The translations under genes and the position numbers were made by a program. The notes under the pieces were generated by a model, which did not search any database, was not told where the DNA came from, and was given only the letters and a program-made list of their open reading frames with translations. A stretch of 64,000 nucleotides of DNA from an uncultured Methanosarcinales archaeon (GTDB lineage Archaea > Nanobdellota > Nanobdellia > Woesearchaeales > DSVV01), in assembly GCA_964593285.1 (NCBI GenBank), contig CAZQHZ010000006.1:1-64000 (forward strand), written 5' to 3'. The stretch's first letter is position 1. Each line of letters begins with the position of its first letter. This document shows, piece after piece, positions 3,214-58,154 of the stretch.

Positions 3214-4950
3214 TTAAGCTTTAAGAGCTTTAAATTCCTCTTCCATTTCAGATTTTACTTCATCTAAAACTCTCTTATAATTTTTTTCAAATTTAGCATT
3301 TGATATTTTTTCTTTTGCTTTTGTTGTAAGTATTGATTTTATACTAACTCCTCTATCAAGTGCATCATTTGCAATTGAATCAAAAAATAATACAGTTTTC
3401 ATAAGCATATAACTTTTTTCTAATTCACAAAAAGTATCAACATCATGGAATGCATTTTGTTGTAAAATAAATTCTCTAACCAACCGTGATGTTTCAAGAG
3501 ATAATTGTTGTTTTTCAGGCAAAGCATCTGATCCAACTAATTGAACAATTTCAAGTAATTTTTCTTCTTCTTGAAGTTTTTTCATTAATTGTGAAACAAA
3601 ATCATGCCAATCTGACGCAATATTTTTTGAAAACCAAGGTTTTAGAGTTTCTAAATACAATGAATAAGATGTAAGCCAATTAATTGACGGAAAATGTCTT
3701 CTTCTTGCTAAATTTGCATCAAGTGCCCAAAATGTTTTTGCAACTCTTAGAGTATTTTGAGTTACAGGTTCTGAAAAATCTCCTCCTGGCGGACTTACCG
3801 CACCAATAATTGTAACAGAGCCTTCATCTTCTTTTCCAAAAGGTACAACTTTTCCAGATCTTTCATAAAATTCAGCAAGTCTTGTAGATAAATATGCAGG
3901 ATATCCTTCTTCCCCTGGCATTTCTTCTAACCTTGAAGAGATTTCTCTCATAGCTTCAGCCCATCTTGAAGTTGAATCAGCCATTAAAGCAACACTATAA
4001 CCTTGATCTCTAAAATATTCAGCAATAGTAATTCCAGTATAAATAGAAGCTTCTCGTGCAGCAACTGGCATATTTGATGTATTTGCAATCAATACAGTTC
4101 TATTCATTAAAGGTTTTTTAGTTTTTGGATCTAATAAATGCGGAAATTCACTTAAAACTTCAGTCATTTCATTTCCTCGCTCCCCACATCCAATGTAAAC
4201 AATAATTTCTGCATCACACCATTTTGCAAGTTGCTGTTGTGATACAGTTTTTCCAGCACCAAAAGGACCTGGAATTGCAGCAACTCCTCCTTTAGCTAAA
4301 GGAAAAAAAACATCAAAAATTCTCTGACCAGTAATTAAAGGAATTTCAGGAGCTAATTTTTTAGTAAATGGCCGTGGAAATTTTATTGGCCATTTTTGCA
4401 TCATAGAAATTTTTTTTCCATCTTCTAATTCAGCAATTGTTTCATCAATAGTAAATTTACCAGATTTAATTTCTTTAATCTTACCACTCATTCCAAAAGG
4501 AACCATTATTTTATGAACCATTCCTTCAGTTTCTTCAACTTCACCAATAATTTGTCCTTGTTTTACACTATCTCCTTTCTTTATAGTAGCCTTAAAATCC
4601 CATTTTTTTTTATGATCAAGACCTGGTGCATCAACACCTCGTAAAATAAAATCTCCCATCTTTTCTTGTAATTTTGGAAGAGGTCTTTGAATACCATCAT
4701 ATATGCTTGTAAGCATACCAGGGCCAAGTTCTACAGATAAAGGAAGACCAGTATTAATAACAGGCTCACCAGGTTTTATCCCAGTAGTATCTTCATATAC
4801 CTGAATAGTTGTATTTTTTGCATCTATTTGAATAACTTCTCCCATAAGTTTTTCATTACCAATTCTTACAACATCAAACATTCTAGCTTTAATTCCTCTT
4901 GCAACAACAACAGGACCTGCAATTCTATATATATATCCATTTTCTGACAT
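3214..4950 (-). CDS. atpA: A/V-type ATP synthase subunit A (catalytic)
   Basis: Walker [27 protein letters not shown]; no intein. Confidence 0.98.
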
Positions 4951-12183: not shown

Positions 12184-13458
12184 TTACAATTCATCTACAG
12201 TTAAAATTGTAACTTTTGATGGTTGTTTTAATTTATTTTCCATTGCAATTAAAAATTTAATATCAGTTTTTTCTGCAACTGAAAGTAAATCTTTTTCAAT
12301 AGAACCATCAAACACAACAGCATAAATTCCAGAATTTAAACTTTTAATAGTACTAACAAGTTCAGTAGTTGGAACTTTTCCTAAAATATTTAAATCTGAA
12401 TCAATAATATATGCACCACGTGTTCCAATTAAATTTTCAAGCATCCCTTTTATTTTTGTTTTTTCTTGCAGAGTGATTTTTTGTTGTTGCTGTGATTGTT
12501 GTTGTGTTTGCGATTGTTGGTTTTGCTGTCTATCTTTATATGAAACTGCATGATTTGGTCTTTTTTGATACTGCATTGAATGCCTTTTATTATAACTTTT
12601 GTTTGCATCATTATTTTCAGCATGTGTTGTCATCTCAAGTTTTGCTTGTTCACTTGAAATCTTACTTCGAAGTGCTTTATGAATTTCTTTTTTAGTTAAT
12701 TCCTCAACTTCTTTTCCATCTGGTGCAAAAGTTACAAAATCAATTTCAGCAACATCTAACAATTCCTTAATTATTAATTGTCCACCTCTATCTCCATCAA
12801 CAAAAATAGTCACTATTTTTCTTTTACACAATTCTGGAAGAGTTGATGGAACACCAGTTCCACCTATAGCAATTGCATTTTTAAAACCATGTTTCAATAA
12901 ATTTATAACATCAGCTCGCCCTTCAACAACCATAATTTCATCAGAATCCTCAACATTAGGCCCAGCAGGCAATCTTTCTTTCCCATATTCAGTAATTTCC
13001 ATTACTCTAACAGAATATGCAACCTCATCAGCTAATTCTTGAGAATCAGGCATACTTGAATCAATAAGACTTTTTAACAAACTTTTTGCCCTATCAATGA
13101 CATATTTTCTTTTTGAAACCCGCACATCTTCTATATTTTCAACCCTAATTTTTGCAATACAAGGACCAATTCTTTGAATTATCTCTAAAGCCGCCCCAAC
13201 AATAGAAGTTTCAGCTTTATCTAAACTTGATGGAATAATAATTGTTCCATTTGTTTTTCCAGATTTTGTTTCAACATTAACTTCAATTCTTCCAATCCTT
13301 CCAGATCTTTGTAATTCTCTAAGTTCCAAATCTGTTCCAAGCAAACCTTCTGTTTGTCCAAAAATTGCACCTATTACATCTGGTTTATCTACAATTCCTG
13401 TAATTGCAATACTTGCATGAATAATATATTTTGATGATACAGGACTAATTTTTCCCAT
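12184..13458 (-). CDS. dnaG: archaeal DnaG (TOPRIM; exosome-associated in studied archaea)
   Basis: [33 protein letters not shown]; start 13458 follows a GGAGGA SD; Gln-rich linker. Confidence 0.96.
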
Positions 13459-13499
13459 TTTAAATTCCTCCATACTCTACTTTTATATTTTTATAAATT

Positions 13500-13800
13500 A
13501 AATAGAACAAATAATGAAAAAATAATTATTCTTAAACCTAAAAAAACTTTTTACAGTTTATTTTTTCAAAAAAATAAAAAACATGTGAAATTTATGAATA
13601 AATAAGCATTATATTGTTCTATTTTCAATTTTAAGCATTAAAAATGTTTTGTTGCCCGTAAAACTAACTCCCAAGCTCATTGCTTGACTTTGTCGTATGC
13701 TTCCTTGAGTACTCTCGTAACGGGCTGTAATACGCAGGAGTGTCTTTATTTCATCGCTAAAAATATCTTATTTTACTCTAAAAAGGACCCATCTGCATAT
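13500..13800 (-). ncRNA. candidate structured RNA (dnaG leader or independent ncRNA) with predicted pseudoknot
   Basis: 43/90 GC at 13651-13740 in otherwise very AT-rich intergenic DNA; several short helices; 17-bp stem 13500-13516/13607-13624; no credible ORF. Confidence 0.65.
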
Positions 13801-13912
13801 TTTTGATTAATTTTAAATAATCAATCCGTATTTTTAAATATTTATATTATTTAACAATAAAATACAAAATAAAACAATAAAATTATAAATTACATGTAGT
13901 TTTTATAAATAA

Positions 13913-14620
13913 ATGATTAAAACTGATTATTTAAAAAATTACAACAATAAAATTAGTACAGGTAGCACTGTTTTTGATAAATTACTAGATGGTGGATTTG
14001 AAAAAGGAATTATTACTACAATCTATGGTGCTTCTGCAACTGGAAAAACAACAATTGCAATGCTTACATCAATTGAAAATGCAAAAAAAAATTTAAAAAC
14101 GTTCTTTATTGACACAGAAAAAGGATTTTCTATTGAAAGATTTAAACAACTTACAAATTCTGATAATTATTTATTATCAAAAATACTTCTTTTAAATCCA
14201 CATAATTTTTTTGAACAAATGAAAAATATTGAAAAAATAAAAAAAATTATTAACGATAAAATAAAATTAGTAATTATTGATACAATTTCTATGTTCTATA
14301 GATTTGAAATTAGTTCTAATAATGAAATAAAAAAAATTAATAATTTACTTGGAATACAAATTGCATGGCTTAGCGAGATTGCAAAAGAACAAAATATACC
14401 AATAATTATTACAAACCAAGTTTATAGTGATTTTAAAATAAAAGATAATGTGAAAATGGTAGGTGGCGATTTATTAAAATATGCAAGTAAATGTTTAATA
14501 GAATTAAAAGAAGTAAATGAATACAAAAAAGCAACAATAAAAAAACATAGATCTTTACCTGAAAATAAAGAAATTAAATTTAAAATTGAAAATTTTGGTT
14601 TTACTCAAATAAAAGATTAA
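13913..14620 (+). CDS. radB: DNA repair protein RadB
   Basis: Short RecA fold: GASATGKT, FIDTE, ITNQVY and the KHRS basic patch. Confidence 0.93.
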   Translation: MIKTDYLKNYNNKISTGSTVFDKLLDGGFEKGIITTIYGASATGKTTIAMLTSIENAKKNLKTFFIDTEKGFSIERFKQLTNSDNYLLSKILLLNPHNFFEQMKNIEKIKKIINDKIKLVIIDTISMFYRFEISSNNEIKKINNLLGIQIAWLSEIAKEQNIPIIITNQVYSDFKIKDNVKMVGGDLLKYASKCLIELKEVNEYKKATIKKHRSLPENKEIKFKIENFGFTQIKD

Positions 14621-54192: not shown

Positions 54193-54342
54193 TGGGGGTA
54201 CAGGGATTTGAACCCTGATCTGCCGGTAACTTCCTCAAGAGTAATTTTCTTGACTTACCAATAAATATCAATCATAGGCAAATTGCCTCATCGCTCCATA
54301 AGACTGGAGCCGGCCATTCTAGCCAGGTTATACTATACCCCC
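54193..54342 (-). tRNA. tRNA-Trp(CCA) with a 76-nt intron at 37/38 (54228-54303)
   Basis: GGGGGTA/TACCCCC acceptor, GCCGG-CT-CCA-G|intron|A-CCGGC, BHB-like junction. Confidence 0.95.
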
Positions 54343-58058: not shown

Positions 58059-58154
58059 GAGCCTGTAGCGTAGTCTGGATAGCGCGAGTGCCTCCTAAAT
58101 TAAATAAAAATTGAAGAAAGCACTAGGTCGTGGGTTCAAATCCCATCAGGCTCG
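58059..58154 (+). tRNA. tRNA-Arg(CCT) with a 21-nt intron at 37/38 (58098-58118)
   Basis: GAGCCTG/CAGGCTC acceptor, AGTGC-CT-CCT-A|intron|A-GCACT. Confidence 0.93.

What the first reader, a model, noticed from the sequence alone, without database searches (positions are those of the whole stretch)
13654..13800. GC-rich, pseudoknot-capable non-coding RNA candidate upstream of archaeal dnaG
Seen: 13651-13740 is 43/90 GC in intergenic DNA that is otherwise nearly pure AT, and has no credible ORF. On the minus (dnaG-sense) strand the segments run P1a ACUCCU (13741-36), P2a CGUAU (13734-30), PKa GCCCGU (13725-20), hairpin GAG-AGUA-CUC (13716-07), P2b AUACG (13698-94), hairpin CAAGC-AAUGA-GCUUG (13686-72), P1b GGGAGU (13672-67), PKb ACGGGC (13659-54). 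PKa lies inside P1/P2 and PKb outside, which is a pseudoknot. TATA-like sequence sits upstream at about 13831-13846. Known: archaeal DnaG is an RNA-binding exosome subunit with a TOPRIM domain. Inference: this is an undescribed cis-regulator, ribozyme, or a partner RNA co-transcribed with DnaG. It is my best candidate for a novel system in this window.
Basis: partly seen in the sequence, partly recalled or inferred. Interest (0 to 1): 0.85.

Follow-up and report, generated by a model that had tools for sequence, protein, structure and literature searches.

The report
Two-hairpin H/ACA pseudouridylation guide RNA
The GC-rich island upstream of dnaG is an archaeal box H/ACA guide RNA gene that most likely directs pseudouridine formation in two functional loops of 23S ribosomal RNA; it is a known kind of RNA, not a new riboswitch or ribozyme.

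Summary
The GC-rich island is real: 43 of 90 bases are G or C at 13651-13740, against 10-14% in the flanks. On the minus strand, 13803-13646 is a conserved non-coding RNA gene. The RNA folds into two hairpins. Each has a lower stem, an internal loop, a 6-bp upper stem, a K-turn signature and a 3' ACA. In this model 28 of 40 pairs show compensatory changes across 29 homologues.

That is the anatomy of an archaeal box H/ACA guide sRNA. The 3' hairpin pocket matches helix 69 of the genome's own 23S rRNA. The 5' hairpin pocket matches the A loop, and the guide changes together with the rRNA in three relatives.

A covariance model finds exactly one copy in 139 of 151 genomes of the class. One copy lies at the place where the single Nanoarchaeum equitans H/ACA sRNA was published.

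Caveats:
- Cbf5 is missing from this assembly.
- Gar1 was not found in any of 61 genomes.
- Expression is not shown.

Verdict: a new member of a known kind, of modest interest. The conserved linkage to dnaG and a second long-range helix at 13624-13500 remain unexplained.

The parts
13831..13840 (-). TATA-box-like promoter element of the sRNA gene. The predicted transcription start near 13812 is inferred from the usual archaeal spacing, not shown.
   Evidence: sequence; a TTTAWATA-like box about 30-38 nt upstream of the element in nearly all of 25 relatives, judged by eye. The N. equitans H/ACA sRNA has a box A promoter and a T-stretch terminator (PMC3491384, passage read).
13646..13803 (-). 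Whole H/ACA guide sRNA as delimited by the covariance model R1 (158 nt, two hairpins).
   Evidence: own match C6:13646-13803 (-), 165.2 bits, E 2.8e-39; alignments; 90.3% of cells paired, 28 of 40 pairs with compensatory change, 0 of 500 shuffles as high. RNAalifold finds both hairpins independently.
13730..13800 (-). Hairpin 1 (A-loop guide). Lower stem 13800-13793 / 13737-13730. 5' pocket 13792-13786. Upper stem 13785-13780 / 13749-13744. K-turn GA 13778-13777 and bulge+GA 13755-13751. Distal stem-loop 13776-13756. 3' pocket 13743-13738.
   Evidence: in helix 1 all 8 pairs show compensatory change, in helix 2 5 of 6, in helix 3 6 of 6; the K-turn G and A on the 3' strand are invariant in 26 sequences.
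13726..13728 (-). Hinge box ACA, directly between the two hairpins, 15 nt from the top of the hairpin-1 pocket.
   Evidence: the last two letters (CA) are conserved. By my reading of the 29 rows the first letter varies: ACA in about 11, otherwise CCA, UCA, GCA or other.
13654..13725 (-). Hairpin 2 (helix 69 guide). Lower stem 13725-13720 / 13659-13654, extended by 13719-13717 / 13664-13662 with a UU bulge at 13661-13660. 5' pocket GAGAGUA 13716-13710. Upper stem 13709-13704 / 13675-13670. K-turn 13703-13701 and 13681-13676. Distal part 13700-13682. 3' pocket AGUUA 13669-13665.
   Evidence: pocket letters invariant or at least 90% conserved in 29 sequences; in helix 4 3 of 9 pairs show compensatory change and 5 never vary; in helix 5, 4 of 6; in helix 7, 2 of 3; this hairpin is kept in all 17 further loci of other families.
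13650..13652 (-). 3' ACA box, one base after the lower stem of hairpin 2 and 17 nt from the top of its pocket.
   Evidence: A163, A164 and C165 at least 90% conserved and A166 invariant (positions of the first sequence). Some other families carry UCA.
13640..13644 (-). Oligo-T run, a candidate transcription terminator (inferred).
   Evidence: a run of 3-5 T lies 4-8 nt after the ACA in most relatives.
13500..13624 (-). Second element, not part of the sRNA. A long-range inverted repeat, AAAUAGAACAA (13624-13614) with UUGUUCUAUUU (13510-13500), encloses about 100 nt between the sRNA and dnaG. Its function is unknown.
   Evidence: a helix of 9-23 bp at the same relative place, containing or matching variants of the GAACAAG/CUUGUUC core, in most of 25 loci (at least 20 by my reading); in the own locus alone it is no better than chance (8 of 20 shuffles); over all loci 64 of 500 shuffles reach the observed score; fold z -2.41.
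12184..13458 (-). dnaG-like gene (Toprim domain) downstream on the same strand. The likely true start is the ATG at 13458, preceded by GGAGG, not the ATG at 13473 that opens the ORF.
   Evidence: Toprim families; relatives' proteins align from residue 4-6 of the 429-aa ORF and begin with MGKISPV.

Best explanation
Window 13803-13646 (minus strand) encodes a two-hairpin archaeal box H/ACA guide sRNA of a Woesearchaeota-type (DPANN) archaeon. Each hairpin would bind L7Ae at its K-turn, and Cbf5-Nop10 at its lower stem and 3' ACA. The open internal loop then base-pairs with 23S rRNA on both sides of a uridine, and Cbf5 converts that uridine to pseudouridine. Hairpin 2 pairs with helix 69. Its 3' guide AGUUA pairs with UAACU and its 5' guide GAGAGU pairs with ACUCUC, leaving AUA (or UAUA) unpaired. 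The predicted targets are the two universally modified uridines of helix 69 (E. coli 1915/1917; numbering recalled). This is the atypical 'UNUN' mode shown for stem-loop 2 of Haloferax sR-h45. Hairpin 1 pairs with the A loop (helix 92): the own 23S reads GGGGUGU[UC]ACCCAUU there, and the predicted target is own U2582 and/or U2581 (E. coli U2555/U2554; numbering partly recalled). Shown here: the gene, its conservation, the covarying two-hairpin fold, the box and K-turn signatures, the complementarity, and a guide-rRNA co-variation. Inferred: protein binding, transcription, and the modifications themselves.
For: Conservation:
- blastn finds it at E <= 1e-5 in 45 of 60 relatives' genomes.
- Model R1 finds one copy in 139 of 151 genomes of the phylum sample: 112 of 116 in the same order and 26 of 34 in other orders of the class.
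- R1 also finds it in 4 of 5 genomes that blastn had missed.

Structure:
- 90.3% of cells are paired and 28 of 40 pairs show compensatory change.
- 0 of 500 shuffles reach these values, and slid controls give 33-41% paired.
- RNAalifold recovers both hairpins on its own, with 25 of 42 pairs compensatory.

Anatomy against the published rules (PMC2377435, abstract and passages: H2 of 5-6 bp, ANA-to-target 14-15 nt, K-turn, 1-3 hairpins):
- Both upper stems are 6 bp.
- Hairpin 1 has 15 nt between pocket top and ACA.
- The K-turn GA on the 3' strand is invariant in both hairpins.
- The terminal ACA is nearly invariant.
- Hairpin 2 has 17 nt. sR-h45 stem-loop 2, which guides the helix 69 uridines, has 17 and 19 (PMC7075261, passages).

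Targets:
- Both pockets have their best site in the own 23S rRNA.
- Counting only contiguous Watson-Crick pairs with the conserved pocket letters, hairpin 2 gives 11 pairs at helix 69 (0 of 300 shuffles reach this).
- The same test gives hairpin 1 10 pairs at the A loop (15 of 300 shuffles).
- Guide AUGGGU goes with rRNA ACCCAU in 13 genomes and guide AUUGGU with rRNA ACCGAU in 3. None is discordant.

Link to a described RNA:
- The R1 hit in a 490,885-bp single-contig genome lies between a class I Trp/Tyr-type tRNA synthetase gene and a hypothetical gene.
- This is as published for the 159-nt two-hairpin H/ACA sRNA of N. equitans, seen by RNA-seq (PMC3491384).

Partners and Rfam:
- Nop10 and L7Ae are in the own genome.
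- Cbf5 scores over its cut-off in 54 of 61 genomes of the order.
- The best Rfam match, far below threshold, is an archaeal H/ACA family, HgcE/Pab105.
Against: - Cbf5 was not found in this assembly (PF01509, TIGR00425 and tblastn with a relative's Cbf5). The assembly is 95.9% complete in 38 contigs.
- Gar1 (PF04410) scored over its cut-off in 0 of 61 genomes of the order. The same search also scores over cut-off in only 2 of the 4 archaeal controls.
- No Rfam family reaches its threshold.
- With a permissive scoring that allows G-U pairs and offsets, the helix 69 match is not unusual (39 of 200 shuffles score as high). The A-loop match is only moderately unusual (7 of 200).
- Helix 69 leaves 3-4 target bases unpaired and the box spacing is 17 nt. 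Both lie outside the canonical rules.
- The hinge box is ACA in only about 11 of 29 relatives. In sR-h45 the ANA of the hinge is needed in vivo (PMC7075261).
- In the own sequence one K-turn position of hairpin 2 is A where most relatives have G.
- The three co-varying genomes may reflect a single evolutionary event.
- tRNAs and 5S rRNA were not scanned as targets.
- No transcript evidence exists for this genome.
Confidence: 0.9

Rival explanations
1. A pseudoknotted cis-regulatory RNA, riboswitch or ribozyme in the dnaG leader, built from P1, P2, two small hairpins and a PK helix.
For: All the listed pairings exist in the own sequence. P1 is paired in 91% of cells across homologues. The element lies upstream of dnaG on the same strand in 40 of 41 loci.
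Against: P1 has no compensatory change in 6 pairs. P2 is paired in 63% of cells. The CAAGC/GCUUG hairpin is paired in 78% with no compensatory change, and the variation on its 3' side is instead compensated by the upper-stem strand of the H/ACA model. The PK helix is the ordinary lower stem of hairpin 2. A TATA box sits upstream and an oligo-T run lies directly behind the ACA. Hairpin 2 also occurs in a genome of another order where the neighbours are not dnaG.
Confidence: 0.02
2. An H/ACA-like K-turn RNA that no longer guides modification. It might act as an L7Ae-binding or rRNA-folding chaperone RNA, as proposed for the processing roles of some eukaryotic H/ACA snoRNAs. Alternatively it might target an RNA other than 23S rRNA.
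For: Cbf5 was not found in this assembly. Gar1 was not found in 61 genomes. The hinge box often departs from ANA. The helix 69 pairing is atypical, and its permissive score is not significant.
Against: Cbf5 scores over cut-off in 54 of 61 genomes of the order, and Nop10 is present here. The pocket letters are the most conserved part of the RNA and are exactly those complementary to helix 69 and the A loop. The guide and the rRNA co-vary. The atypical helix 69 geometry has an experimentally proven precedent (PMC7075261).
Confidence: 0.06
3. Same RNA, different biogenesis. The sRNA is not an independent gene. It is cut out of a longer sRNA-leader-dnaG transcript, and the conserved long-range helix at 13624-13500 acts as a processing or regulatory signal.
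For: The sRNA-dnaG order and strand are kept in 40 of 41 loci, while the upstream gene is not conserved. A helix with sequence-variable but complementary arms lies between them in most of 25 loci. Its 5' arm begins only about 13-15 nt after a TATA-like GCTTAAAA. That is too close for a start from this box to include the arm (an inference from the usual archaeal spacing).
Against: An oligo-T run follows the ACA in most relatives. The N. equitans homologue has its own promoter and terminator and is not next to dnaG. In the own locus the helix is no better than chance (8 of 20 shuffles). No transcript data are available.
Confidence: 0.2

Closest known systems
The single box H/ACA sRNA of Nanoarchaeum equitans (159 nt; Randau 2012, PMC3491384, passages read)
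   Same: Same phylum-level lineage. Two hairpins, each with a K-turn, separated only by ACA. About 158 nt long. Box A promoter and T-stretch terminator. One copy per genome. R1 matches (75.2 bits, E 1.3e-16) at the described kind of place in a 490,885-bp genome, and hairpin 2 there carries the same pocket letters.
   Different: The 5' hairpin of that genome has a different pocket, so it has another target. It is not linked to dnaG.
Haloferax volcanii sR-h45 (PMC7075261, abstract and passages read)
   Same: [quoted passage not shown] Its 3' stem-loop guides both helix 69 uridines from one pocket, with 3-4 unpaired target bases and a box-to-target distance of 17/19 nt. Here the distance is 17 nt from pocket top to ACA. 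Sheared G-A pairs are needed in each stem-loop.
   Different: [quoted passage not shown] Sequence homology was not tested because no sR-h45 sequence was at hand.
Pyrococcus abyssi Pab40 motif 3 (and Pf7, Afu4) (PMC2377435, passages read)
   Same: An archaeal H/ACA motif that guides one of the two conserved helix 69 pseudouridines. H2 is 5-6 bp and carries a K-turn.
   Different: It is part of a three-hairpin RNA. Active Pyrococcus motifs have a canonical 14-15 nt spacing. No homology test was done.
Yeast snR10 (A-loop pseudouridine, LSU 2923) and snR191 / human U19 (helix 69)
   Same: Eukaryotic H/ACA guides for the same two rRNA loops. For snR10 see PMC7814045, passage and table row. For snR191/U19 see PMC7075261, discussion.
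   Different: These are eukaryotic snoRNAs with an H box, no K-turn and a different protein set (Nhp2 in place of L7Ae; recalled). Whether an archaeal A-loop guide is already in print could not be settled (searches; Hansen et al. 2002 is not held).
Rfam RF00060 HgcE (Pab105)
   Same: Best Rfam match. The alignment places the ACA, the lower stem and the AAUGA K-turn strand in register.
   Different: 12.1 bits against a gathering score of 50, E 6.8. It is not a member.

Membership tests
Archaeal box H/ACA guide sRNA | One to three hairpins, each with a lower helix H1 of at least 7 bp | tested here: met
   Hairpin 1 has 8 bp, all 8 with compensatory change. Hairpin 2 has 6+3 bp with a 2-nt bulge, and 3 of the 9 pairs are compensatory. 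The rule is from PMC2377435.
Archaeal box H/ACA guide sRNA | Internal loop (pocket) with 5-11 nt on each strand | tested here: met
   Hairpin 1 has 7-8 and 6 nt. Hairpin 2 has 7 and 5 nt. RNAalifold closes part of each loop with pairs that never vary, which says nothing either way.
Archaeal box H/ACA guide sRNA | Upper helix H2 of 5 or 6 bp between the pocket and the K-turn | tested here: met
   6 bp in both hairpins, with 5 of 6 and 4 of 6 pairs compensatory. The rule is from the abstract of PMC2377435.
Archaeal box H/ACA guide sRNA | K-turn or K-loop with tandem sheared G-A pairs (L7Ae site) | tested here: met
   Sequence signature only. GA on the 5' strand, and a 3-nt bulge plus GA on the 3' strand, in both hairpins. 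The 3'-strand GA is invariant. In the own hairpin 2 one 5'-strand G is A. L7Ae binding cannot be tested here.
Archaeal box H/ACA guide sRNA | ANA/ACA box just 3' of each hairpin, 14-15 nt from the target position | tested here: inconclusive
   The terminal ACA is nearly invariant but lies 17 nt from the pocket top. The hinge ACA lies at 15 nt, but its first letter is A in only about 11 of 29 relatives. A 17-nt spacing has a proven precedent in sR-h45.
Archaeal box H/ACA guide sRNA | Two-sided complementarity to rRNA around an unpaired U-N | tested here: met
   Hairpin 1 forms 7+7 pairs around UC in the A loop. Hairpin 2 forms 5+6 Watson-Crick pairs around AUA in helix 69. The statistics are mixed: 0 of 300 and 15 of 300 shuffles in the strict test, 39 of 200 and 7 of 200 in the permissive test. 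Guide and rRNA co-vary in 3 genomes.
Archaeal box H/ACA guide sRNA | Protein partners Cbf5, Nop10, L7Ae and Gar1 encoded by the organism | tested here: inconclusive
   Nop10 and L7Ae were found. Cbf5 was not found in this assembly but scores over cut-off in 54 of 61 genomes of the order. Gar1 scores over cut-off in 0 of 61.
Archaeal box H/ACA guide sRNA | The RNA is expressed and the target uridines are pseudouridines | not testable with these tools
   The only RNA run that held words of the stretch covers 13301-13456 (dnaG) alone. RNA-seq evidence exists for the N. equitans homologue (PMC3491384).
Any Rfam family (release 15) | Score at or above the family's gathering threshold | tested here: not met
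   There are no matches in the region at gathering thresholds. The best match is HgcE at 12.1 bits against 50.
   Only the PK helix is supported. P1 has 0 of 6 pairs compensatory, P2 is paired in 63% of cells, and the hairpin in 78%.
Small protein-coding gene | A conserved open frame | tested here: not met
   The only frame is a 40-aa TTG ORF on the opposite strand. The homologues differ by 1-nt indels and by paired compensatory changes. Codon periodicity was not computed.

The most novel reading that the evidence does not exclude
Hairpin 1 would be an archaeal RNA guide for pseudouridylation of the ribosomal A loop. In the literature I could read, this site is H/ACA-guided only in eukaryotes (snR10). 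It would work in a lineage where no Gar1 is detectable. In addition, the guide RNA, a previously undescribed long-range helix (13624-13500) and dnaG would form one conserved unit across the order. In that unit the helix would be a processing or autoregulatory signal, coupling an rRNA-modification guide to the exosome subunit DnaG.
Probability: 0.2. Interest if true: 0.55.

Novelty: new member of a known kind. Interest (0 to 1): 0.35.

Why it matters
It gives a concrete function to a conserved, unannotated RNA gene that Rfam does not detect. The gene is present once in about nine of ten genomes sampled from a large class of uncultured DPANN archaea. It predicts that these reduced genomes keep RNA-guided pseudouridylation for two key sites of the large subunit: helix 69, an inter-subunit bridge, and the A loop, where tRNA is accommodated. 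The covariance model and the alignment could seed an Rfam family and improve annotation of such genomes. If the A-loop guide, the missing Gar1 and the dnaG linkage hold up, they offer testable leads on how a minimal H/ACA system works. None of this changes the general picture of H/ACA RNAs.

Tried and rejected
- Rfam at gathering thresholds found nothing in the region. At E <= 10 it gave a spurious STnc410 match and the weak HgcE lead.
- ARAGORN and Rfam rule out a tRNA here. I considered by eye a tRNA, split-tRNA half, 5S rRNA, SRP RNA, RNase P RNA and C/D box reading. I dropped all of them because no defining motifs or matches were seen.
- My first target scan used fixed pocket borders and found no convincing site. 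The sites appeared once offsets and 3 unpaired bases were allowed. The borders were therefore chosen after the fact.
- Sequencing runs: of 9 listed, one is RNA. Laid on the stretch, its single 157-nt contig covers 13301-13456 only. This gives no information on the sRNA, neither for nor against expression.
Only 39 of the 80 loci tested match R1. The Halorubrum and Methanocorpusculaceae rows are chance matches inside coding sequence, so they give no direct link to sR-h45.
- I looked for Cbf5 at the place syntenic with a relative. The neighbour's homologue in this genome is followed by alanyl-tRNA synthetase, so synteny is not kept and nothing can be learned from it.
- I guessed that the guide-independent pseudouridine 2603 of P. 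abyssi lies in the A loop. I dropped this, because the numbering offset I derived from the paper's own statements places it elsewhere.
- G042 and G031 carry the variant A loop, but they have another 5' hairpin or none, so they give no further test of co-variation.
- A second TAGAACAA...TTGTTCTA pair in the own genome (C1:8461-8630) lies inside a coding frame and is taken as chance.
- The count of 43 G-U against 5 A-C pairs in the long-range helix is biased by my scoring and is not used as evidence of strand.
- The search of earlier findings returned nothing.
Full report
**1. What is there**

The intergenic space between a Toprim-domain gene (dnaG-like, 12184-13473, minus strand) and a Rad51/RadB-like gene (13913-14620, plus strand) is 10-14% G+C. 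The exception is an island of about 160 nt. 13646-13803 holds 61 of 158. The only ORF in the island is a 40-aa TTG frame on the + strand.

**2. It is a conserved RNA gene**

- blastn with 171 nt of the minus strand matches 45 of 60 relatives' genomes at E <= 1e-5. Identity is 68-91% within otherwise AT-rich spacers. The hits cover the same family and many other families of the order.
- Names on public contigs that carry it read Candidatus Woesearchaeota, Nanoarchaeia or Nanobdellota. Some carry automatic labels that look wrong.
- I built covariance model R1 from 26 of the 30 fetched homologues. Three with a divergent 5' hairpin and one truncated locus were left out.
- R1 finds exactly one match per genome in 139 of 151 genomes sampled from the phylum. 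That is 112 of 116 in the same order and 26 of 34 in other orders of the class.
- R1 also finds the gene in 4 of 5 genomes that blastn had missed.

**3. The fold**

- P1 has no pair with changes on both sides.
- P2 is paired in 63% of cells.
- The CAAGC/GCUUG hairpin is paired in 78% of cells, with no compensatory change.
- Only 'PK' covaries.

A two-hairpin model does well:
- 90.3% of 1160 cells are paired.
- 28 of 40 pairs have changes on both sides.
- 0 of 500 column shuffles reach any of the five measures.
- Sliding the partner by 1-3 columns gives 33-41% paired.
- RNAalifold, run without my structure, returns the same lower, upper and distal stems, with 25 of 42 pairs compensatory.

'PK' is the lower stem of hairpin 2.

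**4. Anatomy**

Each hairpin has five parts:
- A lower stem: 8 bp in hairpin 1; 6+3 bp with a UU bulge in hairpin 2.
- An internal loop whose letters are the most conserved of the whole RNA.
- A 6-bp upper stem.
- A K-turn signature: GA on the 5' strand opposite a 3-nt bulge plus GA on the 3' strand. The latter is invariant.
- A distal stem-loop of variable sequence.

ACA follows hairpin 1 after one base (13728-13726) and hairpin 2 after one base (13652-13650).

This is the descriptor of archaeal box H/ACA motifs. The published rules are H1 of at least 7 bp, loop strands of 5-11 nt, H2 of 5-6 bp, a K-turn, and ANA 14-15 nt from the target (PMC2377435, abstract and passages). Hairpin 1 has 15 nt between pocket top and ACA. 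Hairpin 2 has 17 nt.

The weak Rfam match that first suggested this reading is to HgcE/Pab105, an archaeal H/ACA family, at 12.1 bits against a threshold of 50.

**5. Targets**

I scanned the genome's own 16S and 23S rRNA for the H/ACA pairing scheme. In that scheme the target's 5' part pairs with the 3' guide, then come unpaired bases, and the 3' part pairs with the 5' guide. A scan with fixed pocket borders gave nothing convincing. With offsets of 0-2 nt and 2-3 unpaired bases, both pockets have their best site in 23S rRNA.

- **Hairpin 2** matches GGGGGUAACU[AUA]ACUCUCUUA, which is helix 69.
- **Hairpin 1** matches GGGGUGU[UC]ACCCAUU, which is the loop of helix 92, the A loop. It forms 7+7 pairs around a canonical unpaired U-N.

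The statistics are mixed.
- Under the permissive score, 39 of 200 shuffled guides do as well as hairpin 2, and 7 of 200 as well as hairpin 1.
- Counting only contiguous Watson-Crick pairs made by the conserved pocket letters, hairpin 2 gives 11 pairs (0 of 300 shuffles). Hairpin 1 gives 10 pairs (15 of 300 shuffles).

Three further points support the assignments.

(a) The letters that pair are the invariant ones.

(b) The helix 69 geometry matches what was shown by experiment for stem-loop 2 of Haloferax volcanii sR-h45. There is one pocket, 3-4 unpaired target bases, and a long box distance. sR-h45 stem-loop 2 makes both helix 69 pseudouridines with unpaired UNUN, and its ACA lies 17 and 19 bases away (PMC7075261).

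(c) The guide follows the rRNA. Helix 69's paired segments are the same in all relatives' 23S sequences that printed in full (part of that output was cut), and so is the guide. The A-loop stem varies.
- rRNA ACCCAU goes with guide AUGGGU in 13 genomes.
- rRNA ACCGAU goes with guide AUUGGU in 3 genomes.
- No genome is discordant.
- One genome has ACUCAU with AUGGGU, which G-U pairing allows.

The three variant genomes belong to three genera of one family and may reflect a single event.

In 12 of 26 sequences the top letter of the 3' guide is C rather than A (my count). The neighbouring uridine would then also be unpaired, so the target may be own U2581, U2582 or both. The equivalents are E. coli U2554/U2555. 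That numbering rests on UmGm 2552/2553 being the first loop bases (PMC2584109) and on recall.

**6. A described relative**

In a 490,885-bp single-contig genome of the same class, the R1 hit (152 nt, 75.2 bits) lies between a class I Trp/Tyr-type tRNA synthetase gene and a gene without a family.

The one H/ACA sRNA found by RNA-seq in Nanoarchaeum equitans is described as follows (PMC3491384):
- 159 nt long;
- located between tyrosyl-tRNA synthetase and a hypothetical gene;
- two hairpins with K-turns, separated only by ACA;
- a box A promoter and a T-stretch terminator.

Hairpin 2 of that locus has the same pocket letters as the window's. Its hairpin 1 has other letters. The window's RNA is therefore best filed as a member of this already described kind. 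Its 5' hairpin differs between lineages:
- the A-loop guide in this family and several others;
- another pocket in G021, G043, G053 and G042;
- none at all (a one-hairpin RNA behind its own AT-rich, TATA-like upstream region) in at least ten other families.

**7. Expression signals**

A TATA-like box lies 30-38 nt upstream of the element in nearly all of 25 relatives. In the window it is at 13840-13831. A run of 3-5 T follows the ACA by 4-8 nt; in the window it is at 13644-13640. Transcription itself is not shown. The one RNA run holding words of the stretch covers only a piece of dnaG.

**8. Partners**

- Nop10 (C33) and L7Ae (C4) are encoded in the genome.
- Cbf5 was not found in this assembly by two profiles or by tblastn. 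It scores over its cut-off in 54 of 61 genomes of the order. With 38 contigs and 95.9% completeness, an assembly gap is the simplest reading, but that is an inference.
- Gar1 (PF04410) scores over cut-off in none of the 61 genomes, three single-contig genomes included. The same search scores over cut-off in only 2 of the 4 archaeal control genomes. So this may be divergence, insensitivity or loss.

**9. Linkage to dnaG, and a second element**

dnaG lies downstream on the same strand in 40 of 41 loci with flanks (39 of 40 genomes). The exception is cut by a contig end. The upstream gene is not conserved.

Between the sRNA and dnaG, most of 25 loci carry a long-range inverted repeat of 9-23 bp (at least 20 by my reading).
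- Its core is GAACAAG/CUUGUUC, with complementary variants such as GAAUAAGC/GCUUAUUC and GGAAAGAGC/GCUCUUUC.
- It encloses 70-190 nt that contain UUCAU/AUCAC-type repeats.
- In the window it spans 13624-13500 and ends 26 nt before the 13473 ATG that opens the ORF (41 nt before the likely true start at 13458).
- In the own locus alone it is not better than chance (8 of 20 shuffles). Over all loci 64 of 500 shuffles reach the observed score.
- It is single-copy in the genome.
- It matches no Rfam family.

I cannot say what it is. A leader structure of dnaG or a processing signal of a joint transcript are the readings I would test.

**10. Verdict**

The observation (a GC-rich structured RNA with a TATA box, upstream of dnaG) is right. 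The pseudoknot, and the idea of a new class, are not.

The best explanation is a two-hairpin box H/ACA guide sRNA for helix 69 and the A loop of 23S rRNA.
- Confidence in the class: about 0.9.
- Confidence in the helix 69 target: about 0.8.
- Confidence in the A-loop target: about 0.65.

It is a new member of a known kind.

Noticed in passing
window 13500-13624 (minus strand); relatives' loci listed: A long-range inverted repeat, AAAUAGAACAA ... UUGUUCUAUUU, lies between the sRNA and dnaG. It is conserved in place, with complementary variants, in most of 25 loci (at least 20 by my reading). Inside it are UUCAU/AUCAC repeats. A TATA-like GCTTAAAA sits 13-15 nt before its 5' arm. It matches no Rfam family and its function is unknown.
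   Followed up: partly
window 13458-13473: The dnaG-like ORF is opened by an ATG at 13473. Relatives begin at the equivalent of the ATG at 13458 (MGKISPV), which is preceded by GGAGG, so 13458 is the likelier start.
   Followed up: partly
window 54193-54342 (-) and 58059-58154 (+): Rfam calls two tRNAs of 150 and 96 nt that ARAGORN does not report. They probably contain introns.
   Followed up: no
L067 (G042), L070 (G034), L073 (G038), just 3' of helix 69 after UUAAGGU: The 23S rRNA genes of three relatives carry insertions of several hundred nt at the same site, directly next to the predicted helix 69 target. They look like rRNA introns, and the longest may encode a protein.
   Followed up: no
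G054:C10:3549-6014 and G001:C65:19228-21735: In two relatives the Cbf5 match is split in two (profile positions 6-174 and 167-320) within a single open frame of 844-851 aa. This looks like an intein-type insertion in Cbf5.
   Followed up: no
61 genomes of the order: Gar1 (PF04410) scores over its cut-off in none of them, single-contig genomes included, although Cbf5 and the guide RNA are present. This may be divergence, an insensitive search or loss.
   Followed up: partly
G000:C33:4628-4774 and 4832-4921: There are two adjacent Nop10-like matches in separate short frames (68 and 44 aa) near the end of a 6.2-kb contig.
   Followed up: no
L076 (G021), L021 (G043), L024 (G053), L226 (G042), L223 (G111): The 5' hairpin of the sRNA has other pocket letters in these genomes, and it is missing in at least ten other families, while the helix 69 hairpin stays. 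The 5' hairpin seems to be an exchangeable module.
   Followed up: partly
L083 (G040), L085 (G052), L087 (G058), L089 (G050): The distal part above the K-turn varies a great deal. It is a short K-loop-like cap in hairpin 1 of G040, and it carries insertions of 40-60 nt in hairpin 2 of G052, G058 and G050.
   Followed up: no
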